Shown here piece by piece: positions 28,490-60,100 of a stretch of 64,000 bases of DNA. Made by a program: the position numbers and the translations under genes. How positions within the stretch are numbered: the stretch's first letter is position 1; every line of letters begins with the position of its first letter. The notes beneath the pieces were generated by a model that saw only the letters and a program-made list of their open reading frames with translations, ran no database searches and was not told the DNA's origin. Source of the stretch: an uncultured Gammaproteobacteria bacterium (GTDB lineage Bacteria > Patescibacteriota > Patescibacteriia > CAZSQN01); contig CAZSQN010000001.1 in assembly GCA_964609095.1 (NCBI GenBank), positions 11,901 to 75,900 on the forward strand, written 5' to 3'.

Positions 28490-28519
28490 CGTTCAGCGTT
28501 TAGAAATTAATATTTTTTT

Positions 28520-29161: not shown

Positions 29162-29239
29162 TTGGGAATTATGAATTAAAAATTACGCATTATGAATAAT
29201 TTGAATCTTAATTCTTTATTCCTGATTTTTAATTCAAAT

Positions 29240-33922: not shown

Positions 33923-34180
33923 ATGGCCAATGAAAACGATGACCGCGATCAAAATCGCGGCAGAGGAAAGAATCAGACGCAAGGAAGCGGCGAAATGCAA
34001 CGCCGTCTTGCCGCGCTGGAGGCGGAGATTCTCCGTTTGAAGTCGCCGGTGGTAAAATGCGCTTTTTGCGCCGGCACCGGCTCCCAGCCGGATAAAGACG
34101 GCAAACCGCTGATTGATGGAGACGACCACCCGATTCCGTGCTTGGTCTGCAGCGGTCGCGGCAAAGTCAGGATTCCGTAA
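33923..34180 (+). CDS. small zinc-ribbon protein (CxxC ... CxxC), basic N-terminus
   Basis: KCAFCAGTGS ... PCLVCSGRGK; first gene of GC-rich block. Confidence 0.5.
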   Translation: MANENDDRDQNRGRGKNQTQGSGEMQRRLAALEAEILRLKSPVVKCAFCAGTGSQPDKDGKPLIDGDDHPIPCLVCSGRGKVRIP

Positions 34181-34200
34181 GACGAGGAAAGGGAGAAAAA

Positions 34201-35013
34201 ATGGATATCGGCGAAAAGATCAAAGATGTAGTGGCCGGCGTCAAGCCGGACCATCCGCACGGTTTGCTCTCCGACGCTTGGCAGCAGGCGGTCCATCGTT
34301 TCGGGCCGAAGATTGCCAAAGCAATGTGGGAAGCGTTTCCCAACGAAGTCAGGGAGAAGCTTTCCGAGGGTTGGGTTAAAGAACTTTTTCAGGGCGTTTC
34401 TCTTCTTGTTGCGCAGGTTTTGCCTAACAAGGGCATTGCCCAGATGATTGACGCGCTTCAGGTTGAGGTGGCCGCGGAATTGCACGAGCTCGCCTCGGCC
34501 CATAAGAAAGGTGAACCAGAACAGGAAAAAGGAACTTCCGTCTCTGCCGGTTCTCCGCCAGTGGCAGCGCGGTATGGAGTTGAGGGAACGGAAAAGATTT
34601 TCCGTATTGAGTTTGAGCGCGCGGAAAAATTGATTGTTTGGTTTGCCTCTGCCGTGGCCGCCGGGATTGACGGCAAAGAACTTGCTCAGTTCCTGAATGG
34701 CCTTACTTTGGCCGAGCTGCGCGTCTTCGCCGACAGCGATGACGACGCCAAGCGCGTGTACGCGGCCGAGCGGCTAAAGGAGCCAGTTCCCAAGGTTAAT
34801 TCAGAATCATTGGCAAGGAAAATTGTCAACTGGTTTGGTAGCCGTTGGGAAGCGGCCAAGGCATGCGCGAGCGAAGTTAACTCCGGCCTTGAGGAAATCG
34901 CGTTGATTCAAGAGAGGGAAACTTTGATGCTTGAACAAGCGCTTGAGGAGAAACGCGCGGAACTGCGCAGGCCGCCCGCCTTGTGGGAGCGTCTGCAGTT
35001 CTGGAAGCTCTAA
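34201..35013 (+). CDS. hypothetical protein (271 aa)
   Basis: RBS aggaaagggagaaaaa before ATG 34201; GC-rich codon usage; no motif recognised. Confidence 0.55.
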   Translation: MDIGEKIKDVVAGVKPDHPHGLLSDAWQQAVHRFGPKIAKAMWEAFPNEVREKLSEGWVKELFQGVSLLVAQVLPNKGIAQMIDALQVEVAAELHELASAHKKGEPEQEKGTSVSAGSPPVAARYGVEGTEKIFRIEFERAEKLIVWFASAVAAGIDGKELAQFLNGLTLAELRVFADSDDDAKRVYAAERLKEPVPKVNSESLARKIVNWFGSRWEAAKACASEVNSGLEEIALIQERETLMLEQALEEKRAELRRPPALWERLQFWKL

Positions 35014-35029
35014 GAAAGGAGAAGATGAA

Positions 35030-36325
35030 ATGACCGCTATCGTCTTGGGATACCTGCGGCGTTTTGGATTGCGGGCCCAGATTTTGGGCCTTAGCGTCTG
35101 GAACAGTTTGCGGCTTTTCTTTGGACGGGCCGCAAGCGCCGTTTATATCGGAATTATTTCCCTTTTCGTGTTTCTGGTTCCCGGCGCGTTTATCGGCTGG
35201 ATTGGATACATTACCGACACCGAGTGGGCGATCGGGCTCGGCCAGTTCCTGATTTCGCTCTCCGGCGCCATTGTCACCGGAGTTCTGGCCGTCTTCTACC
35301 TCAAGATAGGCGTGATTACCACGCATGTCTTGGTGGGGATTGACGGCGTTCTGGAATTTGTTTCCCGCGGCAAGATTAAGAATTTCTTCTCCAAGGACAT
35401 GGGAGCAAACATCAGGCAGGATCTGCTAAACGCCTTCGCGTGGGTAGCTGTCTTCCTGCTGTGGTGCTCGGTTGTTCCCGTTTGGAAGCATCCGACGGCG
35501 GTGCCGTTGGGGGCCACCTTTTCCTTGTTTTTTGCCTTTGCTTCGTCAAGACTCTGGGAGCTTACCCAAAAGAGGATTGGCAAGGCCGTTGTTTTTACTC
35601 TCCTGGCGCTGGCCTTTGTTTTCCACTCTTTCAATGTCTGCATGGGCGGAGCAATGTCGCTTTGGGTTTCGGCCAAAGGCGATGTTGCCGGCGCGTCCAT
35701 TAGAACCGGAGTGGCGGCGGAATCCGGCCGCGAAGAGATTCTTGAAGAGAGGATTTCCTACGAAGAAGCTATGTCCAAAGTCAGGGTGGCGGAGTATCGC
35801 AACCTTGGCGCAAGGCAAATCTGGCTTTCTTCCGTTGGCCAAGAGAACTCTGCCGAATTTAGGCGTAACGCTCGCCGTATGCGTGAGCTTGAAAGCGGCA
35901 ATCGTCCGGTAAAAAGAAATGTTGCTCCAAATGGAGAGGGCAGCTCAAGTTTCGCGGCTGGCGTCGGCAAACTTGCCGAGCTTGCCGGCGCTAACTGGGG
36001 CTGGCTGCTCATTGGCGGCCTTTCCGTTTTCCTGTTTGCCCTGTTCATTGTCGGGTTGGTTGCCAAACGCAACTGGCTTGCGGCTATGGCGCTTGCCGGT
36101 TTGCTTCTCGCGGGATTTGCCGGAGTTGGATATTGGCTTTTGAGCATGGATTCCGGCCGGACTACGGAGTCCGCAGTAGAGGTTCCGCGCGAGCCGCCAA
36201 TTCGTGAGCCGCTAACTCATCCGGAAACGAGGAGAGCGGCGCGGCGTTCTTGCGGAGGATGTTCTAAAATTCGCGCCGAAGTTGAAGACATCGGGAGAAA
36301 TCTTGATGTCCTCGCGGCGCAATAA
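35030..36325 (+). CDS. hypothetical polytopic membrane protein (431 aa)
   Basis: RBS aaggagaag; multiple hydrophobic helices; C-terminal CGGCSK; GC-rich (sampled 60-mers 34/60 and 38/60 G+C). Confidence 0.6.
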   Translation: MTAIVLGYLRRFGLRAQILGLSVWNSLRLFFGRAASAVYIGIISLFVFLVPGAFIGWIGYITDTEWAIGLGQFLISLSGAIVTGVLAVFYLKIGVITTHVLVGIDGVLEFVSRGKIKNFFSKDMGANIRQDLLNAFAWVAVFLLWCSVVPVWKHPTAVPLGATFSLFFAFASSRLWELTQKRIGKAVVFTLLALAFVFHSFNVCMGGAMSLWVSAKGDVAGASIRTGVAAESGREEILEERISYEEAMSKVRVAEYRNLGARQIWLSSVGQENSAEFRRNARRMRELESGNRPVKRNVAPNGEGSSSFAAGVGKLAELAGANWGWLLIGGLSVFLFALFIVGLVAKRNWLAAMALAGLLLAGFAGVGYWLLSMDSGRTTESAVEVPREPPIREPLTHPETRRAARRSCGGCSKIRAEVEDIGRNLDVLAAQ

Positions 36326-36339
36326 CATACCTGTTCTTT

Positions 36340-36530
36340 AATTTAATACCCTCTGACAAATTGTCAGAGGGATTTTTTTAAAAAAATCCCGCGATACTTT
36401 TTATAGTATCGCGCGGGCTCGAATTCAGCTTTTGTCAATCGTCATTGACAAAAGAATGAATTTGTGGTAAAAGTATATATTCGCTCTTTTGATAAATCCA
36501 GCACATAATCTATGTGCTGGATAAGAAAAG
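36340..36530. promoter_or_regulatory. cluster of five near-perfect palindromes in one intergenic region
   Basis: ctctgacaaattgtcagag; gggatttttttaaaaaaatccc; cccgcgatactttttatagtatcgcgcggg; ttttgtcaatcgtcattgacaaaa; tccagcacataatctatgtgctgga, all read directly. Confidence 0.45.
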
Positions 36531-36543
36531 AAAGGAAAGAAAA

Positions 36544-36984
36544 ATGGTCGGACCGCTCCGTATCGCGTTTGTTTTTTTCATTGTTTCCGGCTGCGGATTT
36601 TCCGCAACGCGGACTGAAGTGAATTCCGCCGGACGCTATTCCACCCGCGGCTATTGCCTGGGAGTTGGTTGCGCCCCTGACTATGGCTTGGGCAATGCTT
36701 GGGTTCCCGGCATTGCGCCGCCATACCCATTCTCTCCCTCTGACGCGCGGTTCGGAGCCGTTGAGGCCTACCGGGCGCGCAATCGCTGGGTAAGAACTCC
36801 CTCTTCGACTTCGCTCGGGACAGCCCCCTCGACTTCGCTCGGGACAGGGGAAGCGAGAGACCCTCGCGTCGCGCCGCTTATCCGCGAGGTTCAGCGGCAG
36901 AACAATGTGCTACGCGAGCTGGAGCGCGAAGTGTGCGAAAATTCCGATGACGAATGCGCAACGGATGAAAGGAGTTCAAGATGA
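36544..36984 (+). CDS. lipoprotein with tandem 9-aa repeat (TPSSTSLGT APSTSLGTG)
   Basis: signal peptide with lipobox VSGC; direct nucleotide repeat at 36796-36850. Confidence 0.6.
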   Translation: MVGPLRIAFVFFIVSGCGFSATRTEVNSAGRYSTRGYCLGVGCAPDYGLGNAWVPGIAPPYPFSPSDARFGAVEAYRARNRWVRTPSSTSLGTAPSTSLGTGEARDPRVAPLIREVQRQNNVLRELEREVCENSDDECATDERSSR

Positions 36985-37457
36985 AAAACTATTGCGTTTT
37001 GGCTGCTTTTCTTTGTTCCTGCGGCTACTCCACTTATCAGTACGATACGCCACACAGCCAGTCATACGGCGATTATGGCGGCGAAGCGAGCTACGCGGCG
37101 AGTTCGGCGCAGATCGCGGTTCCGGTTTCGCCGGCTAACCAGTGGGGTTGCGCTTTGCCGCTTCAGCTGGAGATCAGAAATCCGTCGCGAGAGTATGACG
37201 TGGTGGTGCACGCGCACCGGCTGGTGGATGACGGCACCACTTTTGAGACATCCGTAAATGTGCCTCGCGCGGGAAGCAGAATCATTTGCCTGCCCGACAT
37301 AGGCGCGTATTCTTTTGAAACCGAGTATTATCTTATCTCGCACGGCGTTCCGCAGCTTATGGGCTGCGGAATTGAGCGGGCAGAGTACGGTTTCTATACC
37401 AACTACGACGGCCGGCACGGGTTCCGCGTTTACCCGCGGCCCGACCGTTCTTGCTAA
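36981..37457 (+). CDS. putative lipoprotein / secreted hypothetical protein
   Basis: N-terminal hydrophobic segment ending CSCG; overlaps upstream stop (ATGA). Confidence 0.55.
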   Translation: MKNYCVLAAFLCSCGYSTYQYDTPHSQSYGDYGGEASYAASSAQIAVPVSPANQWGCALPLQLEIRNPSREYDVVVHAHRLVDDGTTFETSVNVPRAGSRIICLPDIGAYSFETEYYLISHGVPQLMGCGIERAEYGFYTNYDGRHGFRVYPRPDRSC

Positions 37458-37470: not shown

Positions 37471-37510
37471 TAAACCGCAACACCTCCGCATCCGCGGAGG
37501 TGTTTTTTTG
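37471..37510 (+). terminator. rho-independent terminator (cacctccgcatccgcggaggtg + tttttttg)
   Basis: perfect 9-bp GC-rich stem followed by T7. Confidence 0.7.
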
Positions 37511-37538: not shown

Positions 37539-37928
37539 TCAAGCCGCGGCTTGAGTGAGCGCGCGGACAACAAATTGCGCGATGCCGTAAGCCAAGACGA
37601 TAATAATCAGACCAATGACCGAGTTTTTAATAATGTCTTTTGCTTTGGTCACCTGGTCTTCGTTTCCGGCGGCTGTCATCCAGAGAAAACCCCCGTAAAG
37701 GATAAGCACAAGCAGGATGGTGCCGATGATGCCCATGGCATAACTTATGATTGTTCCCACTAGCGTGGCCAGAGAAGTTTGGCCGCCGGCGCCCGGGAGC
37801 CGCGCGCTTCTGGCGGTTTCTTCAAGCCCGAATCCTCCCTCGGCCCCGTTTTGAGCCAACGTCAGAGAAGGCGCAATCAGGCCGGCTAATGATATTGAAA
37901 GCTTGAATATCTTTTTTAATTGTTTCAT
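37539..37928 (-). CDS. VirB2/TrbC-like pilin-type small membrane protein, paralog 1
   Basis: signal peptide, then hydrophobic hairpin with conserved YGGFLWMTAAGNEDQVTKAKDII ... GLIIIVLAYGIAQFV. Confidence 0.65.
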   Translation of the reverse strand: MKQLKKIFKLSISLAGLIAPSLTLAQNGAEGGFGLEETARSARLPGAGGQTSLATLVGTIISYAMGIIGTILLVLILYGGFLWMTAAGNEDQVTKAKDIIKNSVIGLIIIVLAYGIAQFVVRALTQAAA

Positions 37929-38058
37929 AAGAATTATTCACTTTCGTGAAGCGGGTTCTATGATCTCATTTGGCGGAATCATAGGCCCCGCTCCACAAGA
38001 ATGCAGATAAAGGGCCCCTCTATAAGAGAACGGCGACGACGCGTCGTGTCGTCCTTCT

Positions 38059-38421
38059 CTACACTGCCGCGGCAGTAAGCGACCGCACGACAAAGCTGGC
38101 AATCGCGTAAGAGGTGACAACGATAATTAAGCCGATAACTCCGGCTGTGATAATCTTTTTGGCTTCCCCAACCTTTTCCTCGTTTCCTCCGGCTGTCATC
38201 CAGGTAAAGCCGCCCCAGAGAATAATCAATACGGCGACAATGCCCAAAAATCCCATAGCCACATTGATGATTCTGGTGATGACCACGCGCACATCAGCGG
38301 TTGGAAGCGCGATTTCTCTCTGCACTTCTTCCAGACCAAGATTCAATTCGGCCGCTTTGGAGACGAGCGGCATCAAAGCCGCGCCAATTCCAGCGCCGAT
38401 TTTAACAAGCATTTTTTTCAT
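38059..38421 (-). CDS. VirB2/TrbC-like pilin-type small membrane protein, paralog 2
   Basis: WGGFTWMTAGGNEEKVGEAKKII ... GLIIVVTSYAIASFV. Confidence 0.65.
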   Translation of the reverse strand: MKKMLVKIGAGIGAALMPLVSKAAELNLGLEEVQREIALPTADVRVVITRIINVAMGFLGIVAVLIILWGGFTWMTAGGNEEKVGEAKKIITAGVIGLIIVVTSYAIASFVVRSLTAAAV

Positions 38422-38441
38422 TTATATCACCTGCCTTTCTT

Positions 38442-38512
38442 GTTAGGGTTTAGCGTTTAGGGTTTAGGGTTTAGTTTTTCACTAAACGCTATACGCTATA
38501 CGCTGAACGCTT
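38442..38512. repeat. heptamer-repeat hairpin family copy 3: (GGGTTTA/GCGTTTA)x4 - loop - (TAAACGC/TATACGC)x4
   Basis: gttagggtttagcgtttagggtttagggtttagtttttcactaaacgctatacgctatacgctgaacgc read directly; between pilin paralogs 2 and 3. Confidence 0.6.
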
Positions 38513-38851
38513 TTACCCGGCCGAGCGGGTTAATGCTCCTATGACAAAGTTAAGTATAGCATAAGCGGCAAAGATTGTGGCTATGCCTAATGTTGCCCAG
38601 ACCAGAGTATCCTTGCCTTTTTTTACTTTTTCGTCATTGCCGCCGGAGGTAAGCCAGAGAAAGCCGCCGTAGATAAACATAAGCAAGGCAATTGAGCCGA
38701 CAATCCCCAGCGCGGCGCGGATAATGTTGGCAATAATAATTCTTATATCCGAAGTGCCTAAAGGGTTGGGCAATTCGCCGGCAAAGGCGGGAAGGGCTAC
38801 TAAGAGATAAGAGATAAAAACTATAAGAGATAAAATTTTTTTTAATTTCAT
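38513..38851 (-). CDS. VirB2/TrbC-like pilin-type small membrane protein, paralog 3
   Basis: YGGFLWLTSGGNDEKVKKGKDTL ... ATIFAAYAILNFV. Confidence 0.65.
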   Translation of the reverse strand: MKLKKILSLIVFISYLLVALPAFAGELPNPLGTSDIRIIIANIIRAALGIVGSIALLMFIYGGFLWLTSGGNDEKVKKGKDTLVWATLGIATIFAAYAILNFVIGALTRSAG

Positions 38852-38876
38852 AAATGTTTTCGTTTAGTGTCTCCAC

Positions 38877-40241
38877 TTATCCTCCCTCCGAAGTTGTTTT
38901 ACAGCAGATGTTAAGTCGTCCGCCCGGGCAATAACCCTGCAAACACTCCCCGCTGTCTATTTTTGACTGAAATTCCGCCTCATTAATCTCGGTGCATTCA
39001 AAGGAGGTTGTTTCCGTGCTTAGATCCTGACATCGGCTGCCCGCTATTTCTCTTGTGATAAGCGTTTGTTGGGCAAAGTTTATGATTGTCGCGGCTCCGA
39101 ATATTATGATAAGTCCGATAACCGCTCCGGTCAATATCTTTCTTCCTTCGTCAACCTGCTCCGCCACGCCGGCGGCTGTAAGCCACTTAAATCCGCCGTA
39201 GATAAACATAAACAGAGCCAGCGAGCCGGAAATGGCCAATATCAGCCGGACAATGTTAATGCCTACCTGTATAAGCTGTGGCAGGCCGCATTTACTAGTT
39301 TCGGTGGCGCCGCGGGTGCAGGCCTCCGGGATAAGACGGGGTAAAAAACTTCTGCCGCCTCCGGCTTCTTCGCTTCCGCCGGCTTGCTCCGGAGGAAGCG
39401 CGGCCCCGCCGCAAATATCAGGGTCGCTGGACACGCTTACAAAATTTCCATCGCCGCATTTGGTCGGGCACGCTTGGTTGCCGTCTTCATCCGGCAGCAG
39501 CGGCTGGGCAATTCCGTCGCGGCATAGGCAGCAGTTGGCGCCGCGGCGCCCGGCCTCTTCTTCCGCGCATTTTTTCGGCCGGCCGGAGCAAACGCCGGAG
39601 AAACATTCCGTATTTTCATTGCAGTTTTCTCCCCCGCTTTTTTTGTTCTCGCAGTTTCCCTGCGGCGCGCAGTATTGGCCAATAAGGCAATCTCTTTCCG
39701 CGGTACATCGGCAGATGCCGCCATCACATCTGCCGGAAGCGCACGTGTCTTCCGGTCTGCAGGCCTCGCCGACTCTTTTAGGCGGCGCGCCGGTCTCGCA
39801 AGCCCCGCCGGAACAACGGAAACCATCCGGGCAATCGCTGTTTAAGACGCATCTTCTGGCGCAGGTGCCTTCTACGCAGCTCCCGCTTTGGCATTGGAGA
39901 TTGCCTTGAGGGCAGGCGCCGCCGTCGCTTACTTTATTAACGCAAACATCATTGCTGCAATATTGGGACGGGTTGCCGCAATGGCTATCGTCTCCGCAAT
40001 CCTCGGCGCAGCTCCCATTATCGCAGGCGCCGCCAAGGCATTCCTGCCTGTTAAAGCAGCTTGAACCATCGGCTTTTTGATTAACGCAGCGGCCGCTGCC
40101 GCAGTATTGAAATGCTTGGCAATCAGTAATTGAGCCGCAATCCTGCGCCAAAGTTTTTTGAGGCAAAAATAAAATAACTCCAATAAAAATGGCAATAAAT
40201 ATGGTAAGCTTATGGCTTATAGCTTGCAGCTTATAGCTCAT
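38877..40241 (-). CDS. large pilin-like protein with an N-terminal cysteine-rich repeat domain, an embedded VirB2/TrbC-like hydrophobic domain and a Cys-rich C-terminal tail
   Basis: signal peptide; four ~45-aa repeats of 8 Cys each (DCxxxxDCxxxQYCxxGRCVNxxxDGxxCxxxxxCxSGxC); then YGGFKWLTAAGVAEQVDEGRKIL ... GLIIIFGAATIINFA as in paralogs 1-3; 454 aa. Confidence 0.65.
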   Translation of the reverse strand: MSYKLQAISHKLTIFIAIFIGVILFLPQKTLAQDCGSITDCQAFQYCGSGRCVNQKADGSSCFNRQECLGGACDNGSCAEDCGDDSHCGNPSQYCSNDVCVNKVSDGGACPQGNLQCQSGSCVEGTCARRCVLNSDCPDGFRCSGGACETGAPPKRVGEACRPEDTCASGRCDGGICRCTAERDCLIGQYCAPQGNCENKKSGGENCNENTECFSGVCSGRPKKCAEEEAGRRGANCCLCRDGIAQPLLPDEDGNQACPTKCGDGNFVSVSSDPDICGGAALPPEQAGGSEEAGGGRSFLPRLIPEACTRGATETSKCGLPQLIQVGINIVRLILAISGSLALFMFIYGGFKWLTAAGVAEQVDEGRKILTGAVIGLIIIFGAATIINFAQQTLITREIAGSRCQDLSTETTSFECTEINEAEFQSKIDSGECLQGYCPGGRLNICCKTTSEGG

Positions 40242-40243
40242 AA

Positions 40244-41659
40244 TTATCTTATTGTCTGATTTACTTTTTCCGCCGTAAAGCGCAGCGCCTCCCGCGCCGG
40301 CAGGGCGCCGGAGATAGTTGATTCAATCATATCAATAAACGCTTTTTCCGCCGACCCCGCGTCTTTGCCTCGGTACCAGCTCTGGGCCGTAAGGGTTTGA
40401 TTGGCAAAAGGCGCCAAGTCCTCGTCTTCCAATTGCCCGCTGATAAGCGCTCTTAATGCGGTTGGCCGGCGGGCCTTGTCCAGATATTTTTTAACCTGTT
40501 CGGCGCCGGCTAAAAATTGCACAAAGTCCCAGGCCTCGTTTGGGTTTTTGGTTTTGCGCGACACCGACTCAATCCAATAGTTGGCGAAATTTATTTCCGG
40601 GTTGCCTTCTATCTGCGGGGCCGGAGCAATGCCCAAATTCAGCTTTGGCGCGCGGGCGCGGATTAGCGGAAGATGATAAGAGTAGCCGAGGAACATCGCG
40701 GATTTGCCGGCGACAAATGCTTCAAATGAAGACGGCATCAGGCCGTTCCAGGTATAAACATCTTTGCCCGGATTGGCAAAATCGGTATAGAAAATGAGCG
40801 CTCCCTCGCCCGGAAGGTCCGGGCGACCAGCCAGCTCGCGGGGCAGCGTATGAAAAGCGGCAAATCCGCTCTCGTCCGTCATTTTGGCTCCGTTTTGCAT
40901 CATTAAGAGCGAGAGAATGTCAAAAGCCCGCTCCACATTTCTGCCCGAACCAATGGCGGCTCCGGCTTGGAGAATGGCGCCGCGGTTATCAAGCCGGGTG
41001 AGCCGCTTTACCGCCTGCTGGAATTCGCTCCAGGTTTGCGGCGGTTGGGGTATTTTGGCCGCGTTTAGAAGGTCGCGGTTATAATAGAGCACCAAAGAAT
41101 CAACAAAAAGAGGCAAGCCGTAGACGCGGTCGGTGACTTCTTCAGGTTTTTTTTCGTCCGGGGTCGGGATAACCGCATCGGCGTAAACCGTGTCTACAAA
41201 GTCGTTGCGCAGCTGGCGCAAAGTGAGCGACGGTTTGGTGCGCAATACCGTCACTTCTTCTTTTTTTATAGCGCCTTGTATCTCGCGGGTGGCGACGGTT
41301 GTTTGCGGCGGCAGAGGAAGCAATTTTGATTGATAGCCGCGCATCCATGTGTTGTGAACGGAAAATATGTCCGGTCCGCGGTCTTCCGCCAAAGCGTTTA
41401 AGAGCTCGCGCTCATATTCTTCCGGCCGCAGTTTTCTGTATTCAACCTGCACGTGAGGATGAAGCGCGCGGTAAGCGGCTATGACATCGTCAAAACTGTC
41501 GGAATCGTCAAAGACGCGCCAATATTTTAACGTAAGCGGTTTGGAAGCTCGCTGGGCCTCTTGCGGCGCGATGCGGCAGGCGCCTCCGAAAAAAATTAAA
41601 AAAGCCAGCAATCCGGTTAAGGCCACTCGCGGTTTTTTAGAAAGTTTTCCTCCGAACAT
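40244..41659 (-). CDS. ABC transporter extracellular solute-binding lipoprotein (family 1, sugar-type)
   Basis: signal peptide with lipobox FGGAC; MalE-like fold by length and composition; start at MFGGKLSK. Confidence 0.8.
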   Translation of the reverse strand: MFGGKLSKKPRVALTGLLAFLIFFGGACRIAPQEAQRASKPLTLKYWRVFDDSDSFDDVIAAYRALHPHVQVEYRKLRPEEYERELLNALAEDRGPDIFSVHNTWMRGYQSKLLPLPPQTTVATREIQGAIKKEEVTVLRTKPSLTLRQLRNDFVDTVYADAVIPTPDEKKPEEVTDRVYGLPLFVDSLVLYYNRDLLNAAKIPQPPQTWSEFQQAVKRLTRLDNRGAILQAGAAIGSGRNVERAFDILSLLMMQNGAKMTDESGFAAFHTLPRELAGRPDLPGEGALIFYTDFANPGKDVYTWNGLMPSSFEAFVAGKSAMFLGYSYHLPLIRARAPKLNLGIAPAPQIEGNPEINFANYWIESVSRKTKNPNEAWDFVQFLAGAEQVKKYLDKARRPTALRALISGQLEDEDLAPFANQTLTAQSWYRGKDAGSAEKAFIDMIESTISGALPAREALRFTAEKVNQTIR

Positions 41660-41660
41660 A

Positions 41661-41756
41661 CCCCGCACATAATTAATAATTAAATAAATTGTAATTTTAA
41701 CCATTGTTCTCCTATTTCCCCGCAACATATATTAACCATATAAGTTATGTGCGGGG
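41661..41756. mobile_element. MITE/REP-like element copy E (96 bp) between SBP start and galU stop
   Basis: termini CCCCGCACATAATT / AAGTTATGTGCGGGG; interior contains a second ccccgcaacat half-site. Confidence 0.55.
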
Positions 41757-42680
41757 CATATTTTTAAGGTATTCCCCAAATTGTTCTCCCACATCAGGAT
41801 GTTTGATGCCTAATTCCACTTGCGCGATTAAAAATCCAAGCTTGGTGCCGCAATCATAGCGCTTGCCTTCGTGAAGTTTGGCATAGATGGGCCGCCCACC
41901 TTTAAGATATGTTTCAAAAGCGTTGGCCAGGCGAATCTCGCCGTCGCGTCCCGGCTTTTGCGCCAAAAGAACCTTCATCATCTCCGGCGTGATAATGGCC
42001 CGGCCGACGAAAATAAGATTGGACGGAGCTTCTTTTGGAGACGGTTTTTCCACAAAATCGCTTATTTCCCAAAGATTGGAAGCTATTTTTTTGCCGTCAA
42101 TTACTCCATAGTGACTTACTTCTTTTTTAGGCACTTCGGAAACGGTAATGACGGGGTCGTTATAACGATGATAGGTTTCCATTAGTTCTTTTAAGGCCGG
42201 TTTTTTACTGGTGATAATGTCGTCGCCAAACATTACGGCTACCGGTTCGTGCTCGTCTACAAAAGGCAGAGCGGAGAGTACCGCGTGGCCGTCGCCCAAG
42301 GGCGCGCCTTGCCGCACAAAGGAAAAATTGGCCAGCTTGCTTATTTTGGCCACTTCTTCCAGCTCTTTTTTCTTTTTCTTTTCGCGCAGCCGGTATTCCA
42401 GTTCAAAATTTCTGTCAAAATGGTCCTCAATGGCGCGTTTGCCCATGGAAGTGACGAAGATGATTTCTTCTATGCCCGAGGCAACAGCTTCTTCCACTAT
42501 ATATTGAATAACCGGCTTGTCCACGACCGGCAGCATTTCTTTGGGCTGGGCTTTGGTCGCCGGCAGGAATCTGGTGCCCAGTCCGGCAACGGGAATAATG
42601 GCTTTTTTTACCCCGTTAGAGACCGCGAGAGCTCGCAGCGCGCTTATGTCCCTAACTGGGTTCACTGATTTTTGCGTCAT
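41745..42680 (-). CDS. galU: UTP-glucose-1-phosphate uridylyltransferase
   Basis: KKAIIPVAGLGTRFLPATKAQPKEMLPVVDKP signature; start at MTQKSVNP. Confidence 0.85.
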   Translation of the reverse strand: MTQKSVNPVRDISALRALAVSNGVKKAIIPVAGLGTRFLPATKAQPKEMLPVVDKPVIQYIVEEAVASGIEEIIFVTSMGKRAIEDHFDRNFELEYRLREKKKKKELEEVAKISKLANFSFVRQGAPLGDGHAVLSALPFVDEHEPVAVMFGDDIITSKKPALKELMETYHRYNDPVITVSEVPKKEVSHYGVIDGKKIASNLWEISDFVEKPSPKEAPSNLIFVGRAIITPEMMKVLLAQKPGRDGEIRLANAFETYLKGGRPIYAKLHEGKRYDCGTKLGFLIAQVELGIKHPDVGEQFGEYLKNMPRT

Positions 42681-43173
42681 AGAATTGATTCTTCCTAACT
42701 TTATCATTATATCCTGTTAGAAGTTTAAGTTCAATTTTTTGTGTTATGGGTGCGTCGGTTAAGTCGGCTTCGGAACTGCCCGCAGGCAAAGGTAAGTCAA
42801 AAAAATAATAGAGGCCTTCGGGCCTCTTTTTATATATAAAGAAAAAGATCAGCCGAGGCTGATCTGTGGGAAAGAGCGGGTGGTGATAAAGGAGCTAAAG
42901 AGCGAGGGTAGTTGGTGAGTGAAAGTTCACTCGGATTTTTTTGAGTTGGCCCTCGTAAGAGCTATCTTTATGATAGCATAGTAAAAAACCAGGTCAAACG
43001 CCTATCTGTGGATAAGTTTTAAGTCGGATTCCGAGACAAAAGAGGGGAAGAAATAACAATTTCTCATTCTATCATTTCCGCCAATTCGGCGGACAAGCGC
43101 GCGAATGAGAGAATGTTAAAATTGGAGGAAATAAAAAAGCCGGCAGCGCGTTAAGCGTAGCCGGTTATTGATG

Positions 43174-44198: not shown

Positions 44199-45434
44199 CT
44201 ACTTTTTTGCCTCTCGGTCAATGTTTTGCGCGATTGCCGGAATCGCGAGCATCAGCCAAAACAGCATTGAGAGGTCATTTTTAAAATAGGGGACATCAAC
44301 AAGACCGTGGATGAGCATCACCGCCATTGCTCCGCCCGAGGCCAGAGCGAACGTCCGCAAGCGCTCGTCTTTTGCCATCTTTTTAATCCGTACGAAGAAA
44401 ACGGAGACAAGGGCGCCAAAAGCAAAAAGCCCCAAGAGCCCCAGCTCGCTCCAAAAGTTTAAGAAAATATTATGCGGATAGAGAAAGGTTTCAATTGCCG
44501 TTGCCTTGTGATATGGAAGCATTGTTTTTTGATATCCGGCCAATCCCGCGCCAAAGACCGGCCGGTCTTTTAGCATTTTCCAAGTTTCATTCCAGGTAAT
44601 TTTTCTTACAATTCCGGACCAATCGCGGAGAAGAAGTTTGTCAGTGACCGGTTTTAAGACCGGCGGCTGGGACACCAAAACAAACGCAATCGTAAAAGCG
44701 ATAATAAAGGCCGCTATTTTTTTTGTCTTGTTTTTTTGCGCTCTGATAATTAAAGATGCCATCACAACTGTGATGGCCACCAGTCCGGATTCTGTTTTGG
44801 CCAAAATTATTGCCGTAAGCATTAAAGGGAGAGAGAGAATAACAATTTTTTTCCAAACCTCGCCCATATATTGCTTCATATATATAAAGAAGATTATAAG
44901 CGGGGCGAGAAAGAGTCCCACGGCATTGGGGTAAGGGTATGGCCCGGTTACGCGGCGCTCCAGGAGCCACGGCTGCGGAATACCGGCGCCGGTAAACTTC
45001 TGCGCAATCGCCCAGAGGGAAATAACCAGCGCCGAAACGAGCAGAGCGCGAAGCATCAAGCGCAAATATTTTTTGTTTTTAAGGTTTTGCGAGACGAGAA
45101 AAAAGAAAATTATCGGTTCCACAAAATACGCTTTCCAAATTCCCAGAGCGGAGACCTTGTCAGGAGAAACGATAACCCCGATAGTAGAGGCAAATAAAAA
45201 TAAAACAATAGGAATTTGGAATTTGGAATTTGGAATTTGGAATTTTCTTTTTGCAACGGCAATGGTAAGAAGAGCGATGGACAGAAGTTCAAGAAGCGTG
45301 GTAGGAAGCGGGCCGAGGGAAGTTCGGATCAAGTATAAAGGAAGAAGTGCCGGGAATATGGAAAGAGCCGAGGAGAAGTTTTTCCAAGCAATGACTCCGT
45401 AAGCAGCGGCGATGGCGATTAAAATTATGGTCAT
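44199..45434 (-). CDS. O-antigen ligase / Wzy-like polytopic membrane protein
   Basis: about 10 TM helices with a large periplasmic loop; operon-coupled (4-nt overlap) with the flippase gene; contains the in-frame repeat KFQIPNSKFQIP. Confidence 0.55.
   Translation of the reverse strand: MTIILIAIAAAYGVIAWKNFSSALSIFPALLPLYLIRTSLGPLPTTLLELLSIALLTIAVAKRKFQIPNSKFQIPIVLFLFASTIGVIVSPDKVSALGIWKAYFVEPIIFFFLVSQNLKNKKYLRLMLRALLVSALVISLWAIAQKFTGAGIPQPWLLERRVTGPYPYPNAVGLFLAPLIIFFIYMKQYMGEVWKKIVILSLPLMLTAIILAKTESGLVAITVVMASLIIRAQKNKTKKIAAFIIAFTIAFVLVSQPPVLKPVTDKLLLRDWSGIVRKITWNETWKMLKDRPVFGAGLAGYQKTMLPYHKATAIETFLYPHNIFLNFWSELGLLGLFAFGALVSVFFVRIKKMAKDERLRTFALASGGAMAVMLIHGLVDVPYFKNDLSMLFWLMLAIPAIAQNIDREAKK
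45212..45246. repeat. heptanucleotide tandem repeat (GAATTTG)x4 + GAATTTT inside the O-antigen-ligase-like CDS
   Basis: ggaatttggaatttggaatttggaatttggaatttt read directly; unit length 7 is not a multiple of 3. Confidence 0.8.
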
Positions 45435-46870
45435 GGATTTATGGGCTTCTTAGCGCGGAGCTTTAAAAGTTCAGTTAGGGTATTTGGCGTGACGGCTCCG
45501 GTCGCGAGTAACAGAGCGAAATAGATAAGCGCGGATAGCGTCACGGCCGCAATCGCGTGCAGGTCGCGCATAAAATATCCGGCCGCGCCCATAATAATTG
45601 CGGAAAGTGCCGCGCGCCAGGCGGATATGATGCCAAAGCCGACCCCGGTTTCTTTTTTTACCAGTATTCCGGCAGAGACAGCGACAAAGGCCTCGGAAAA
45701 AAGAGTGATGCCGGCGGCGGCGAAAACTCCGTAGCGCGGAATAAGCAGGGCATAGAGGGCAAGGGAAAGCACGGCGCTTGCGGCAAAGGCCCAGAGGATT
45801 CTTTTTTGTTTTTCTATGGCTACCACCGTGTGCAAAGGCAGCGCTCCTATAAATAGGAAGAAGACGGCCAGGATGAGTACGCGCAAGATACTGCCGGAAG
45901 AGGCAAACTCTTCTCCGGCCAGAATGGACATTACTTTGTCGCCAAGGGCGAGCGTTCCGGCAACCAGGGGCAGAGCCAGAATAACCAGGGCGTAAAAGCT
46001 TTTTTGGTACAGCCGGGCGAATTTTTCCTTGTCTCCGGTTGCCCAGGCGCCGGATAAGAGCGGCAGAATCAGGCCCATAAAGAGCACGGGGAAGGCGGTT
46101 AAGACATCAACTACTCTGTAGGCGGCGCCGTAAAGTCCGACTTCTTCAACCGTGCGCGAAAGCGAAAGAACGAGCACGTCCGCGCGCAGGTAAACGAGGT
46201 TTAAGGCAATGGAAACAGCGACCGGCCAGGAACGGCGCAAAAGCTCCATCCACTCGCGCGTGTCAAAAGAAAATCTGACGGGAGTAAAAGAGTTGGCAAA
46301 GAGGAGCGCCAGAAGCGCATTAAGGACATTGGCGGCCACCAGCGCGATAAAAATTCCTAAAAGCCCGCCGTGAAGATAGGCGGAAATAATCACTCCGAGG
46401 AGAAGAGCGGCGCGGCTGGCAATTTCGGCAATGGCGATTTTGTCCATGCGGAGGTTGGCCTGGAAAAGCGCCGAGAGCATCTGCGTAAAAGCAGTGGCCA
46501 AGAAGGCGAGCGCGGCAATGGCAATGCCGATTTTAATTTCTCCTGAATACGGAAAGAAAAGCGCGACTATGGGCGCGGCGCCGAAAAATAAAAGTCCGGA
46601 GACAAGGCGGAAGCCGAGCGCGGTTCCTAAAATCTTTTTTCTGTCAGTGTTTGGATTTCCAAAAAGCGAGGCGAGGGTGATAGTTAAACCCAAATCAACG
46701 GCAATGCCGAAGAACTGCAAAAATGCCGTGACGGTGGTAAAAGCTCCGAAGCCGGCCGTGCCGATACTGCGGGTAATAAAACCGATAGTAATAAGGCCCA
46801 GAACAATGGACCCGGCTTTGCCAATGGCCTGGACCCCGGTGTTATAAGCGATTTTTCTAGCGACAGACAT
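45431..46870 (-). CDS. Wzx/MOP-superfamily polysaccharide flippase
   Basis: 479 aa, 12-14 TM helices, typical polysaccharide biosynthesis protein N-terminus MSVARKIAYNTGVQAIGKAG. Confidence 0.8.
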   Translation of the reverse strand: MSVARKIAYNTGVQAIGKAGSIVLGLITIGFITRSIGTAGFGAFTTVTAFLQFFGIAVDLGLTITLASLFGNPNTDRKKILGTALGFRLVSGLLFFGAAPIVALFFPYSGEIKIGIAIAALAFLATAFTQMLSALFQANLRMDKIAIAEIASRAALLLGVIISAYLHGGLLGIFIALVAANVLNALLALLFANSFTPVRFSFDTREWMELLRRSWPVAVSIALNLVYLRADVLVLSLSRTVEEVGLYGAAYRVVDVLTAFPVLFMGLILPLLSGAWATGDKEKFARLYQKSFYALVILALPLVAGTLALGDKVMSILAGEEFASSGSILRVLILAVFFLFIGALPLHTVVAIEKQKRILWAFAASAVLSLALYALLIPRYGVFAAAGITLFSEAFVAVSAGILVKKETGVGFGIISAWRAALSAIIMGAAGYFMRDLHAIAAVTLSALIYFALLLATGAVTPNTLTELLKLRAKKPINP

Positions 46871-46876
46871 AAAATT

Positions 46877-46907
46877 AGCTTATAGCTTATAGCTTATAGC
46901 TTATAGC
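46877..46907. repeat. heptanucleotide tandem repeat (TAGCTTA / GCTTATA)x4 starting 7 nt upstream of the flippase start codon
   Basis: tagcttatagcttatagcttatagcttatagc read directly; degenerate copy agcttatggcttatagcttgcagcttatagctcat forms the first codons of the Cys-rich pilin gene (40203-40241). Confidence 0.8.
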
Positions 46908-46992
46908 CCGATTATTCCAGTTAAACTATTGCTTTTATTTAGTTTTAGGTTAATATCCCTAAAGGTCTTTCCCAATACAACGGAGGTGATGA

Positions 46993-51085: not shown

Positions 51086-51200
51086 ATGTCTAATATCTAA
51101 TTCCTAATTTCTAATCAATGACTAATGATTTAATGTCTAAAAAGATTTAGTTATTAGACATTAAAATATTGATTTGACATTAGAAATTAGTCATTGGTTA
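51086..51200. repeat. ~115-bp AT-rich palindromic element (atgtctaat ... taatttctaatcaatgactaatga ... ttagaaattagtcattgg), copy 1
   Basis: direct-orientation partner at 53950-54060 sharing both ends. Confidence 0.5.
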
Positions 51201-60017: not shown

Positions 60018-60100
60018 TTATCAATTTTTAATTTTCAATAAATTTTTATTGAGAGATGAAAAATTCAATGAAAATTGTTAATTGAAAATTGGAAATTTTA
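60018..60100. repeat. AT-rich palindromic intergenic element related to 5621-5735
   Basis: aattttcaataaatttttattgaga ... gaaaattgttaattgaaaattgg. Confidence 0.4.

What the first reader, a model, noticed from the sequence alone, without database searches (positions are those of the whole stretch)
37539..40241. Tandem array of four VirB2/TrbC-like pilin paralogs, one fused to a 4x cysteine-rich repeat ectodomain
Four consecutive minus-strand genes share a signal peptide plus a hydrophobic hairpin with the conserved core [YW]GGF.W.T..G.[NA]E..V...K.I.......GLII.......I.[NQ]F.

The last member (38877-40241, 454 aa) differs from the others:
- four ~45-aa 8-Cys repeats precede the pilin-like domain;
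- a roughly 65-aa Cys-rich tail follows it.

An adhesin-like disulfide module displayed on a pilin scaffold has not, to my knowledge, been characterised. It is a good candidate for a host- or surface-attachment structure.

The array sits directly downstream of a GC-rich island of unknown membrane proteins and lipoproteins (33.9-37.5 kb). It is punctuated by a heptamer-repeat hairpin (38442-38512). The large gene starts with a GCTATAA-type repeat.
Basis: partly seen in the sequence, partly recalled or inferred. Interest (0 to 1): 0.75.

Follow-up and report, generated by a model that had tools for sequence, protein, structure and literature searches.

The report
Pilin array with cysteine-decorated first pilin
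An uncultivated ultrasmall bacterium (Candidatus Uhrbacteria) carries four tandem conjugation-type (VirB2-like) pilin genes, a published kind of array, but the first pilin carries swappable cysteine-rich surface modules, which has not been described and may bear on how these epibionts recognise hosts.

Summary
Four adjacent minus-strand genes (37539-40241) encode proteins with a Sec signal and a two-helix hairpin. All four score above the Pfam PF18895 (T4SS_pilin) threshold.

The first gene (454 aa, 46 Cys) carries four 8-Cys repeats, a further 8-Cys linker domain and a 6-Cys C-terminal tail. All 46 Cys are conserved in a 63%-identical ortholog (dN/dS about 0.1).

The organism is a Candidatus Uhrbacteria (Patescibacteria). 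NCBI already names the protein "TrbC/VirB2 family". Tandem VirB2-like arrays in Patescibacteria are published (441 arrays, PMC12102498), so the array itself is known.

Not found in the papers searched:
- The same orthologous pilin carries 0, 1 or 4 copies of a DUF7107/Dickkopf_N-like module in syntenic genomes, and its tail can be swapped.
- Other lineages put different Cys-rich modules on the promoter-proximal pilins.
- An orphan solute-binding lipoprotein gene sits immediately upstream in 54 of 83 related loci.
- No T4SS ATPase was found in the window or among the neighbour families identified within about 10 kb of related loci.

The heptamer hairpin and the 5' repeat belong to a genome-wide class of intergenic repeats.

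Best reading (inferred, not shown): a modular minor pilin that displays a disulfide-rich adhesin. This is a new variant of a known kind; interest is moderate.

The parts
38877..40241 (-). p1: modular VirB2-like pilin, 454 aa, 46 Cys. Order: signal peptide, 4 Dkk/DUF7107-like repeats, Cys linker domain, pilin hairpin, 6-Cys tail.
   Evidence: PF18895 30.5 bits against 26.6 at residues 329-389. Identical to an NCBI 'TrbC/VirB2 family protein' from Candidatus Uhrbacteria. The ortholog in L001 is 62.6% identical with 46/46 Cys conserved and overall dN/dS 0.115.
40143..40241 (-). Sec-type signal peptide of p1 (residues 1-33; likely cleavage at TLA|Q).
   Evidence: Hydrophobic segment at residues 5-33. 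Helix 3-25 in the model. Least conserved part of the protein (30% identity). The cleavage site is inferred from the -3/-1 rule.
39564..40142 (-). Four tandem 8-Cys repeats (residues 34-226), DUF7107/Dickkopf_N-like.
   Evidence: Eight invariant Cys plus one Gly per unit (A2). hhalign against DUF7107/Dickkopf_N units gives 98.6%, E 1.2e-15. Single units score 24.1 bits against a gathering score of 24.6. dN/dS 0.09. Each unit is modelled as two beta-hairpins.
39282..39563 (-). Linker region with 8 Cys (residues 227-320). It includes a compact domain (about 231-280), a low-complexity Gly/Glu stretch, and the conserved pre-hairpin motif LPRLIPEAC...CGLPQL.
   Evidence: pLDDT 72-92 for residues 231-280. 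The motif is invariant in A5. dN/dS 0.15.
39057..39281 (-). Pilin hairpin (residues 321-395): two transmembrane helices joined by a short charged loop.
   Evidence: PF18895 match. Helices 320-355 and 360-401 with pLDDT 87-90. 81% identical to the L001 ortholog and 73-90% identical to short pilins elsewhere. No Cys.
38880..39056 (-). C-terminal 6-Cys tail module (residues 396-454).
   Evidence: The pattern C..YxC..GxC..GLC.PG..CC is conserved in p1-type pilins of about 10 independent loci. It is replaced by a different 10-Cys tail in ortholog P0237 and is absent in the L002 and L004 orthologs.
38513..38851 (-). p2: short VirB2-like pilin, 112 aa, no Cys.
   Evidence: PF18895 42.3 bits and PF04956 TrbC 28.5 bits (gathering score 27.9). 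Its orthologs in L004 and L002 carry 6-Cys and 12-Cys N-terminal inserts.
38059..38421 (-). p3: short VirB2-like pilin, 120 aa, no Cys.
   Evidence: PF18895 38.5 bits. 83% identical to the L001 ortholog.
37539..37928 (-). p4: short VirB2-like pilin, 129 aa, no Cys.
   Evidence: PF18895 48.5 bits. NCBIfam NF045849 (Mbov_0395 pilin-like conjugal transfer protein) 40.0 bits against a cutoff of 40.
40244..41728 (-). Solute-binding lipoprotein (SBP_bac_1), 494 aa. Its stop codon lies 2 nt before the p1 start. Conserved upstream partner of p1-type pilins.
   Evidence: PF01547 105.6 bits. The homologous cluster is present in 61/84 loci and lies immediately upstream (gap -16 to +140 nt) of a pilin or array in 54/83 loci. 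No permease or ATPase was found among the neighbour clusters scanned.
41745..42707 (-). GalU-like nucleotidyl transferase, probably the first gene of the operon.
   Evidence: PF00483 96 bits. Same position in 25 loci. A promoter-like site lies at 42734-42706.
38442..38512 (-). Heptamer-repeat hairpin in the p2-p3 spacer. A member of a genome-wide class of intergenic repeats.
   Evidence: TRF period 7. Fold -24.4 kcal/mol, z = -2.4. The same units recur at 662-718. L001 has only a single-unit version at the same site.
40207..40242 (-). Imperfect heptamer repeat (AGCTTAT, 5.1 copies) over the start codon and first 12 codons of p1.
   Evidence: Period-7 repeats also sit at the SBP/p1 junction in L001 and L002, with different unit sequences.
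37929..38058 (-). p3-p4 spacer with two conserved stem-loops.
   Evidence: RNAalifold gives -44 kcal/mol, and 8 of 35 pairs have compensatory changes across window, L001, L002 and L004. No Rfam match.
37479..37504 (.). GC-rich hairpin between the convergent gene ends. A strong terminator for the plus strand and a weaker one for the array.
   Evidence: The sequence shows only a short T-run on the minus strand.

Best explanation
This is a chromosomal operon of a Candidatus Uhrbacteria (Patescibacteria) genome: GalU-like gene, solute-binding lipoprotein, then four VirB2/TrbC-like pilins (Pfam PF18895). It belongs to the published class of Patescibacterial VirB2-like pilin arrays.

Shown here:
- Family membership of all four pilins.
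- Paralogy within the array.
- The domain anatomy of the first pilin.
- Purifying selection on that pilin.
- Conserved synteny with other genomes.
- Module copy-number variation among orthologs.

Inferred topology and mechanism:
- All four proteins are exported by Sec and inserted as helical hairpins. Both termini lie outside the cell and the short charged loop lies inside.
- The three Cys-free short pilins (p2-p4) supply the bulk subunits of a conjugative-type filament or membrane-proximal pilin assembly.
- The promoter-proximal p1 keeps a fully conserved assembly-competent hairpin.
- p1 carries about 290 residues on its outward-facing N-terminus: four DUF7107/Dickkopf_N-like modules plus one further Cys domain. 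Its outward-facing C-terminus carries a 6-Cys module. All of these are probably disulfide-bonded.
- p1 would therefore act as a low-abundance 'modular' pilin at the tip or along the shaft, presenting an exchangeable binding module to a host cell or surface.

The co-transcribed orphan solute-binding lipoprotein is a conserved partner whose role is unknown. The assembly machinery (VirB4 and others) must be encoded elsewhere, if it is used at all.
For: Family: all four proteins exceed the PF18895 gathering score, and p2 also passes TrbC PF04956. NF045849, the pilin-like conjugal transfer family, scores at or near its cutoff. NCBI uses the name TrbC/VirB2.

Known kind: 441 tandem arrays of 2-11 VirB2-like genes are reported in Patescibacteria, and one such array is essential in Southlakia.

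Topology: signal segment plus two hydrophobic helices. The model's hairpin has pLDDT 87-90. Cys is absent from the hairpin and confined to the predicted extracytoplasmic parts. Cys makes up 0.09% of hairpins, 4.4% of extensions and 0.76% of the background proteome.

Real, constrained domain: 46/46 Cys are conserved at 62.6% identity, and dN/dS is 0.09 in the repeats.

The hairpin is more than an anchor: it is the most conserved part of p1 (81% identity). It keeps the family-invariant YGGFxWxTAxG...G positions and is 73-90% identical to stand-alone short pilins.

Modularity:
- In the same position of a syntenic operon, p1 is 132 aa with 0 modules (L002), 227 aa with 1 module (L004), or 454/469/489 aa with 4 modules (window, L001, P0237). 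The tail is present, absent or swapped.
- p2 gains different Cys inserts in L002 and L004.
- The same Dkk-like module sits on other pilin cores: 8 copies in P0114 and 3 in P0076.
- Other lineages use different Cys modules.

Positional gradient: median length is 162 aa at position 1, 177 aa at position 2 and about 130 aa at positions 3-7.

Module identity: hhalign 98.6% to DUF7107/Dickkopf_N units. Homologs are large multi-repeat proteins, presumably extracellular.
Against: - No T4SS ATPase or channel gene is found among ORFs of 150 aa or more in the 64-kb window.
- None appears among the recurrent or large neighbour clusters scanned within about 10 kb of 83 related loci. About 25 large singleton ORFs were not scanned, so an occasional VirB4 neighbour is not excluded.
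- No pilus built from PF18895 proteins has been observed in any Patescibacterium; the review speaks only of 'potential'.
- Fold searches with the model found no significant match to solved conjugative pilins, and a PDB sequence search with the hairpin profile also found none.
- The model of the ectodomain is only moderately confident (mean pLDDT 65.8).
- Disulfide formation is assumed. No Dsb- or VKOR-like gene was looked for or seen.
- The tight link to a solute-binding protein is not explained by a pilus model.
Confidence: 0.55

Rival explanations
1. Membrane-anchored surface display without a pilus. In this operon the VirB2-like hairpins act as stable bitopic membrane anchors, or form small membrane oligomers. 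They hold Cys-rich ectodomains at the cell surface, together with the solute-binding lipoprotein. The result is a cell-surface complex for attachment or for capturing host-derived solutes, independent of any T4SS.
For: No VirB4, VirD4 or VirB6 is in the window or among the neighbour clusters scanned near related loci. The invariant gene pair is SBP plus p1, not pilin plus ATPase (54/83 loci). The neighbourhood is housekeeping and envelope genes. No filament has ever been shown for this family.
Against: A mere anchor would not need to keep the family-invariant YGGFxWxTAxG...G residues, 81% identity and dN/dS 0.09. It would also not explain 3-7 additional undecorated paralogs in the same operon. 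In other Patescibacteria, homologous pilin genes lie near virB4 in 1,135 assemblies, and the array in Southlakia is essential within the T4SS cluster.
Confidence: 0.25
2. A repertoire of alternative major pilins. The four genes are interchangeable major subunits used one at a time to vary surface properties or host range (antigenic or phase variation). p1 is simply the most elaborate variant. The heptamer repeat over its start codon acts as a slipped-strand on/off switch.
For: The published interpretation of VirB2 arrays invokes variation and adaptation to different host strains. A period-7 repeat, not divisible by 3, lies over the p1 start or its first codons in window, L001 and L002. Pilin decoration differs sharply between close relatives.
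Against: The repeat is imperfect (75% matches), and the same kind of heptamer array is common in ordinary intergenic spacers across the genome. Each position p1-p4 has its own conserved ortholog across genomes, which indicates distinct, non-redundant roles. The genes form one tightly packed operon with no obvious individual promoters.
Confidence: 0.12
3. A metal- or redox-active Cys module. In an anaerobic groundwater organism, the 46 cysteines would bind metals (Zn, Fe, Cu) or act as a redox buffer at the cell surface instead of forming disulfides.
For: Cys density is very high, at 13.9% of the ectodomain. No disulfide-forming enzyme was identified in the window.
Against: The Cys spacing and flanking residues match DUF7107/Dickkopf_N units. 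These are disulfide-knotted extracellular modules (established knowledge of Dickkopf; not tested here). Cys counts are even in each unit (8) and even overall in 39 of 54 long pilins. There are no His/Cys metal-site motifs.
Confidence: 0.05

Closest known systems
Tandem VirB2-like pilin arrays of Patescibacteria (Quinonero-Coronel et al. 2025, PMC12102498; the essential pilin array of Ca. Southlakia epibionticum, Wang et al. 2023, PMC10633639)
   Same: The same Pfam families were used to define them (PF18895 and PF04956). They have 2-11 tandem genes with low identity between paralogs, in the same phylum, on the chromosome and often in the dnaA region. Here dnaA lies about 17 kb away.
   Different: The published description treats them as small pilins, and in the passages found by term searches of those papers there is no mention of extra domains or of a solute-binding protein partner. 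The Southlakia array lies inside the T4SS cluster. This one lies in a GalU-SBP operon with no T4SS gene in 64 kb.
VirB2/TrbC/TraA conjugative pilins of Gram-negative T4SS
   Same: Sec leader, two hydrophobic helices joined by a short charged loop, and about 70-100 mature residues for p2-p4. p2 passes the PF04956 threshold.
   Different: The organism is a monoderm. No cyclisation or processing partners are seen. p1 is about 4 times larger, with Cys-rich domains on both termini. No sequence or fold match to solved pilins reached significance.
Modular type IV pilins (e.g. Streptococcus sanguinis PilB and PilC; PMC8179133, PMC9934059)
   Same: The same design principle: a conserved pilin module that keeps the ability to polymerise, with a grafted functional (adhesive) module. 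Such pilins are used as minor subunits alongside plain major pilins encoded in the same locus.
   Different: The pilin superfamily is unrelated. Type IV pilins have a class III signal peptide and a single N-terminal helix, and they are assembled by PilB/PilC machinery. Here there is a Sec signal and a helical hairpin. This is an analogy only.
Dickkopf_N (PF04706) / DUF7107 (PF23416) cysteine-rich repeats
   Same: The same 8-Cys spacing and the same conserved flanks (DC, YC, G..C, EC.SG.C..G.C). The profile-profile match is 98.6%. As in the multi-repeat homologs from animals (Owenia) and Myxococcales, the units occur in tandem.
   Different: Single units fall just below Pfam's gathering score (24.1 against 24.6 bits). 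Dickkopf_N proper has 10 Cys (own knowledge). Among 1.84 billion representatives, fusion to a membrane hairpin pilin is seen only in a handful of Patescibacterial-type proteins: P0001/P0002/P0237, P0011/P0015, P0076 and P0114.
Mycoplasma ICE pilin-like conjugal transfer protein (NCBIfam NF045849, Mbov_0395 family)
   Same: p4 scores at the family cutoff (40.0 bits), and p3 and p2 score just below it. These are small hairpin proteins of monoderm conjugation systems.
   Different: It is an equivalog model for ICE-borne genes. Here there is no ICE, relaxase or VirB4 context.
VirB5-type pilus-tip adhesins
   Same: The proposed role is the same: a minor component that presents a binding surface on a conjugative pilus (review PMC12857230).
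   Different: There is no homology. VirB5 is a separate soluble helical protein that docks on VirB2. Here the adhesin would be covalently part of a pilin.

Membership tests
Pfam PF18895 T4SS_pilin (VirB2-like pilins) | HMM score above the curated gathering threshold (26.6 bits) | tested here: met
   48.5, 38.5, 42.3 and 30.5 bits for p4, p3, p2 and p1.
Pfam PF18895 T4SS_pilin (VirB2-like pilins) | Signal peptide followed by two hydrophobic helices joined by a short charged loop | tested here: met
   Hydropathy segments. Alignment A1. Modelled helices 320-355 and 360-401 with pLDDT 87-90.
Pfam PF18895 T4SS_pilin (VirB2-like pilins) | Small protein of about 95-140 aa | tested here: not met
   Met for p2-p4 (112-129 aa). 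Not met for p1 (454 aa). The best 120 of 1,654 family hits are all 95-139 aa. In the locus census the median is 136 aa and only 3 of 375 are 400 aa or longer.
TrbC/VirB2 pilin PF04956 | HMM score above the gathering threshold (27.9 bits) | tested here: inconclusive
   p2 scores 28.5 bits (passes) and p3 scores 14 bits. p4 and p1 give no hit.
Conjugative (T4SS) pilus subunit in the functional sense | Encoded with, or served by, VirB4/VirB6-type assembly machinery | tested here: not met
   No such gene is found among ORFs of 150 aa or more in the 64-kb window, or among the recurrent and large neighbour clusters scanned within about 10 kb of 83 related loci. The rest of the genome could not be examined.
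Conjugative (T4SS) pilus subunit in the functional sense | Polymerises into an extracellular filament | not testable with these tools
   Needs microscopy or proteomics. Not yet shown for any Patescibacterium.
Conjugative (T4SS) pilus subunit in the functional sense | Fold similarity to solved VirB2/TraA/TrbC pilins | tested here: inconclusive
Patescibacterial VirB2 arrays (PMC12102498) | 2-11 pilin genes in tandem, or separated by one non-pilin gene, with low identity between paralogs (mean 25%, maximum 54%) | tested here: met
   Four adjacent genes with 37-46% identity in the core. The organism is Candidatus Uhrbacteria.
DUF7107 (PF23416) / Dickkopf_N (PF04706) repeat | HMM score above the gathering threshold | tested here: not met
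   The whole protein scores 17 bits against 24.6. The best single unit scores 24.1 against 24.6. Of 10 units, 9 hit DUF7107 and 8 hit Dickkopf_N at E below 1.
DUF7107 (PF23416) / Dickkopf_N (PF04706) repeat | Shared Cys framework and profile-level homology to bona fide units | tested here: met
   hhalign 98.6%, E 1.2e-15, over 47 aligned columns. phmmer hits down to 2e-28 on proteins that pass both Pfam models.
Type IV (T4P) pilins, including modular pilins | Class III signal peptide (G|FxxxE) and a single long N-terminal helix | tested here: not met
   The sequences show Sec-type leaders (TLA|Q, AFA|G, SKA|A) and a helix-loop-helix core. No T4P family hit.
SBP-dependent ABC importer (for the upstream gene) | Solute-binding protein encoded with permease and ATPase subunits | tested here: not met
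   The SBP_bac_1 domain is clear, but no permease or ATPase cluster recurs beside it among the clusters scanned from 83 loci.

The most novel reading that the evidence does not exclude
Patescibacteria of the Uhrbacteria/Falkowbacteria type build a VirB2-type appendage whose promoter-proximal subunits are 'modular conjugative pilins'. A conserved polymerisation hairpin has rapidly exchangeable disulfide-rich modules grafted onto both of its outward-facing termini. These modules include DUF7107/Dickkopf_N-like units, CC-type units and others. They determine which host cell or surface the epibiont binds. A dedicated orphan solute-binding lipoprotein, encoded immediately upstream, is an obligatory partner, perhaps as a docking, priming or ligand-sensing component. 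The system is genetically uncoupled from the T4SS ATPase locus. This would be the first covalent adhesin-pilin fusion in the VirB2 superfamily, and a candidate host-range determinant for a large part of microbial dark matter.
Probability: 0.3. Interest if true: 0.75.

Novelty: new variant of a known kind. Interest (0 to 1): 0.55.

Why it matters
How ultrasmall CPR/Patescibacteria find and hold their hosts is largely unknown. The only genetic study (Southlakia) found VirB2-like pilin arrays to be essential without explaining what they do.

This locus suggests one answer that can be tested. The pilin hairpin is a conserved scaffold. The first one or two pilins of the array carry Cys-rich surface modules that differ in kind and number even between genomes with the same operon. 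That is the pattern expected of specificity determinants.

Three further points follow:
- A conserved gene pair, solute-binding lipoprotein plus p1 pilin, was not mentioned in the papers checked.
- Many pilin arrays are not linked to virB4, which affects how 'T4SS' is scored in genome surveys.
- There is an annotation hazard. The hairpin draws weak FixQ hits, and JGI names one such protein 'cbb3-type cytochrome oxidase subunit 3'.

Tried and rejected
1. Single-sequence AlphaFold2 of the 454-aa protein gave pLDDT 51 and was not usable. The run with a 31-sequence alignment was better but still only moderate (65.8).
3. PDB sequence searches with the ectodomain and with the hairpin profile found nothing.
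4. I looked for T4SS or T4P machinery in every ORF of 150 aa or more in the window and found none. I did the same for the recurrent or large neighbour clusters of 83 related loci and found only housekeeping genes.
5. I considered whether the convergent 33.9-37.5 kb 'island' belongs to the system. It has no family hits, lies on the opposite strand, and its gene clusters are found in only 2-4 loci of close relatives. I therefore treated it as a neighbour, not a part.
6. I considered the heptamer hairpin as an array-specific regulatory element and rejected that, because the same repeat class is dispersed genome-wide.
7. I considered the Cys repeat as a eukaryote-derived module. The nearest named hits are from an annelid, but Myxococcales proteins carry it too, so no transfer claim is made.
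8. An Rfam scan of the operon gave only sub-threshold chance hits.
9. The word-indexed homolog search with the full protein found only 4 hits. The exhaustive representative search was needed to find the repeat's relatives.

Full report
**1. The observation**

The four minus-strand ORFs exist exactly as described: 37539-37928 (129 aa), 38059-38421 (120 aa), 38513-38851 (112 aa) and 38877-40241 (454 aa). I call them p4, p3, p2 and p1 in order of transcription.

Their C-terminal cores align with 37-46% identity and share invariant G, G, F, W, T, G, V, G, I and F positions. Each has an N-terminal hydrophobic leader and two further hydrophobic helices.

p1 contains 46 cysteines, distributed as follows:
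- Residues 34-226: four units of 47-49 aa, 8 Cys each.
- Residues 227-320: 8 Cys.
- Hairpin (321-395): none.
- 59-aa tail: 6 Cys.

The three short paralogs have no cysteine at all. This is far from chance. In a census of related loci, Cys makes up 0.76% of ordinary proteins, 0.09% of pilin hairpins, 4.4% of pilin extensions and 13.9% of the p1 ectodomain.

**2. Family and organism**

All four proteins pass the Pfam gathering threshold of PF18895 (T4SS_pilin), and p2 also passes PF04956 (TrbC/VirB2). NCBIfam's Mbov_0395 pilin-like conjugal-transfer model scores at its cutoff for p4.

The exact p1 sequence is in NCBI as 'TrbC/VirB2 family protein [Candidatus Uhrbacteria bacterium]', on a 347,787-bp contig.

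The window is ordinary chromosome. It carries dnaA and dnaN at 18.7-21.5 kb, along with PNPase, trigger factor, PBP1, IscS/NifU, RuvB, PurA and other housekeeping genes.

**3. What is already known**

Quinonero-Coronel et al. 2025 (PMC12102498) searched 3,035 Patescibacteria genomes with these same two Pfam models. They reported VirB2-like pilins in 1,948 assemblies. They also found 441 tandem arrays of 2-11 genes, with mean paralog identity of 25%.

Wang et al. 2023 (PMC10633639) showed that such an array is essential in Ca. Southlakia epibionticum. A 2025 review calls the possible pilus of these monoderms an open question.

The array as such is therefore a known kind. Term searches within these papers, and library searches for PF18895, T4SS_pilin, and Patescibacteria + cysteine-rich + pilin, found no mention of pilins with additional domains or of a solute-binding partner.

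**4. The large protein is real and constrained**

A second genome (L001) has the same operon. Its p1 is 469 aa and 62.6% identical to the window's. All 46 Cys align to Cys. dN/dS is 0.09 in the repeats, 0.15 in the linker and 0.09 in the hairpin. A third full-length ortholog, P0237 (489 aa), has the same four repeats.

**5. What the repeat is**

An exhaustive search of 1.84 billion representative proteins with the ectodomain found 90 proteins. Most are 500-3,000 aa long with a median of 5 copies of the unit. The top hits pass Pfam Dickkopf_N (PF04706) and DUF7107 (PF23416).

A profile of ten pilin-borne units matches a profile of those Pfam-positive units with probability 98.6% and E 1.2e-15. 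Single units miss Pfam's gathering score narrowly, at 24.1 against 24.6 bits. I therefore call the module DUF7107/Dickkopf_N-like and do not file it as a strict family member.

Named carriers include an annelid (Owenia) and Myxococcales.

With a 31-sequence alignment, AlphaFold2 models each unit as two beta-hairpins. It also models a further compact Cys domain at residues 231-280 (pLDDT 72-92) and a confident helical hairpin (pLDDT 87-90).

Fold searches gave no significant hits. Only weak hits appeared, to Dkk4, Draxin and an archaeal conjugation pilus.

**6. Modularity, the main new point**

The operon GalU-like > SBP > p1 > p2 > p3 > p4 is syntenic in at least five genomes. The p1 ortholog is recognisable by position, by 73-90% hairpin identity and by the invariant pre-hairpin motif LPxLIPxAC...CGLPEL. 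Its architecture varies:

| Locus | p1 length | Dkk-like modules | C-terminal tail |
|---|---|---|---|
| L002, L003 | 132 aa | 0 | none |
| L004, P0011 | 227-231 aa | 1 | none |
| Window | 454 aa | 4 | 6-Cys tail |
| L001 | 469 aa | 4 | 6-Cys tail |
| P0237 | 489 aa | 4 | unrelated 10-Cys tail |

p2 is plain in the window and in L001. It carries a 6-Cys insert in L004, where the gene caller missed its start, and a 12-Cys insert of about 130 aa in L002.

The Dkk-like module also occurs on different pilin cores: three copies in P0076 and eight in P0114 (683 aa, 75 Cys).

A scan of species-representative genomes with the p1 core returned 225 relatives. The 80 loci kept lie in Uhrbacteria, Falkowbacteria, Magasanikbacteria and Parcubacteria MAGs. 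Across these and the five earlier loci there are 375 pilin ORFs. The median length is 136 aa; 50 are 180 aa or longer, 16 are 250 aa or longer and 3 are 400 aa or longer.

Long pilins elsewhere carry other Cys modules with no Pfam model, for example L037 (486 aa), L026 and L051. The 6-Cys tail is conserved in about 10 loci. Pilin length correlates with Cys count (r = 0.92), and Cys counts are mostly even.

**7. Context**

The most conserved neighbour is the solute-binding lipoprotein (SBP_bac_1). It is present in 61 of 84 loci and lies immediately upstream of a pilin or array in 54 of 83. In the window its stop codon is 2 nt from the p1 start.

Two architectures recur:
- Type I (Uhrbacteria-like, including the window): the array directly follows the SBP.
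- Type II (Falkowbacteria-like): SBP > one p1 pilin > RodZ-like > methyltransferase > ... > an array of six or seven short pilins.

Decorated pilins concentrate at positions 1-2. Median lengths are 162 and 177 aa there, against about 130 aa at later positions.

None of the recurrent or large neighbour clusters that I scanned is a T4SS ATPase, a channel protein or an ABC permease. About 25 large singleton ORFs were left unscanned.

**8. Small DNA features**

The heptamer hairpin (38442-38512) and the heptamer repeat over the p1 start (40207-40242) are real. They belong to a genome-wide class. There are 13 period-7 arrays against 0.3 expected from shuffles, none at periods 8-12, and 11 of the 13 lie in the 16% of the window that is non-coding.

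The same units recur at 662-718. L001 has only a one-unit hairpin at the p2-p3 site. Intergenic heptamer repeats have precedents in Beggiatoaceae and cyanobacteria (PMC4679880).

The p3-p4 spacer holds two conserved stem-loops with some compensatory changes.

**9. Mechanism**

Shown: family membership, paralogy, topology-compatible Cys distribution, purifying selection, and modular gain, loss and swapping of modules at the outward-facing termini.

Inferred: the short pilins form the body of a VirB2-type assembly. p1 keeps a fully conserved hairpin and co-assembles as a minor subunit. Its disulfide-rich modules face outward, because in solved conjugative pili both pilin termini are external (established knowledge; not tested here).

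The analogy is to modular type IV pilins (PMC8179133). That is a functional analogy only, because the type IV pilin defining features are not met.

The main rival is pilus-independent membrane display together with the SBP. The absence of nearby T4SS genes supports it. The strict conservation of family-specific hairpin residues, and the accompanying plain paralogs, argue against it.

**10. Verdict**

The array is a known kind. The Cys-decorated modular VirB2-like pilin and the SBP-p1 gene pair are a new variant, and I found no description of either. The adhesin function is plausible but unproven. Interest is moderate (0.55).

Noticed in passing
window 658-718, 5630-5726, 13566-13632, 28479-28503, 29166-29235, 38443-38511, 40207-40242, 45207-45247, 46874-46909, 51085-51115, 53954-54054, 60016-60097: Short tandem heptamer repeats (3-5 copies) are dispersed across the window. 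They often come as two adjacent arrays that are near reverse complements, and they sit almost always in short spacers between genes. There are 13 arrays against 0.3 in shuffles, and none at periods 8-12. Unit families recur: TAGCGTA/CCTAAAC, AATTTCC and TAGCTTA. Related genomes have them at different junctions (L002 and L004 at GalU/SBP; L001 and L002 at SBP/p1). They resemble the intergenic heptamer repeats of Beggiatoaceae and cyanobacteria (PMC4679880). Their function is unknown.
   Followed up: partly
window 40244-41728 (-) and loci L001-L084: An SBP_bac_1 solute-binding lipoprotein gene lies immediately upstream of a p1-type VirB2-like pilin in 54 of 83 loci across several Patescibacterial classes. 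No ABC permease or ATPase gene was found beside it. This conserved gene pair was not mentioned in the papers I checked.
   Followed up: partly
window 37929-38058 (-); L001 5101-5215; L002 5159-5289; L004 3743-3951: The spacer between the third and fourth pilin genes holds two conserved stem-loops. In the RNAalifold consensus, 8 of 35 pairs show compensatory changes, though only four sequences were compared. There is no Rfam match. It could be an attenuator or an RNA-processing site that sets pilin ratios.
   Followed up: partly
window 44199-46870 (-), 41745-42707 (-): A Wzy_C/O-antigen-ligase-family gene and a polysaccharide flippase gene lie upstream of the GalU-SBP-pilin operon, and this arrangement recurs in 10-12 related loci. 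The Wzy_C family includes pilin O-oligosaccharyltransferases (PglL/TfpO; own knowledge), so pilin glycosylation is a possibility. This was not tested.
   Followed up: no
L004 2700-3227 (+): The public gene call for the second pilin of this array is only 48 aa. The intact ORF is 175 aa, with a signal peptide and a 6-Cys insert. Short-pilin censuses based on such gene calls will miss decorated forms.
   Followed up: yes
P0076 (JGI/IMG), and window 37539-37928: JGI names a 288-aa pilin carrying three Dkk-like repeats 'cbb3-type cytochrome oxidase subunit 3'. The window's p4 also gives a weak FixQ hit (E 0.016). The hairpin attracts a misleading annotation.
   Followed up: partly
window 57027-57098 (-): ARAGORN predicts a tRNA-Ile with anticodon TAT. 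This is uncommon in bacteria, which usually read AUA with a modified CAU anticodon (own knowledge).
   Followed up: no
window 62280-63938 (-): A 552-aa protein has two Big_1/invasin-D3 Ig-like domains. It is another candidate surface adhesin in the same window.
   Followed up: no
window 18662-21466 (+): dnaA and dnaN lie about 17 kb from the pilin array. The literature notes that Patescibacterial T4SS genes are often near dnaA (PMC12102498), yet no T4SS machinery gene lies between them here.
   Followed up: partly
window 33973-37457 (+): Four genes convergent to the array have no family hits. They comprise a 270-291 aa protein, a 431-464 aa polytopic membrane protein and two small lipoprotein-like proteins with lipobox-like leaders. 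Their gene clusters are found in only 2-4 loci, all close relatives of this genome.
   Followed up: partly
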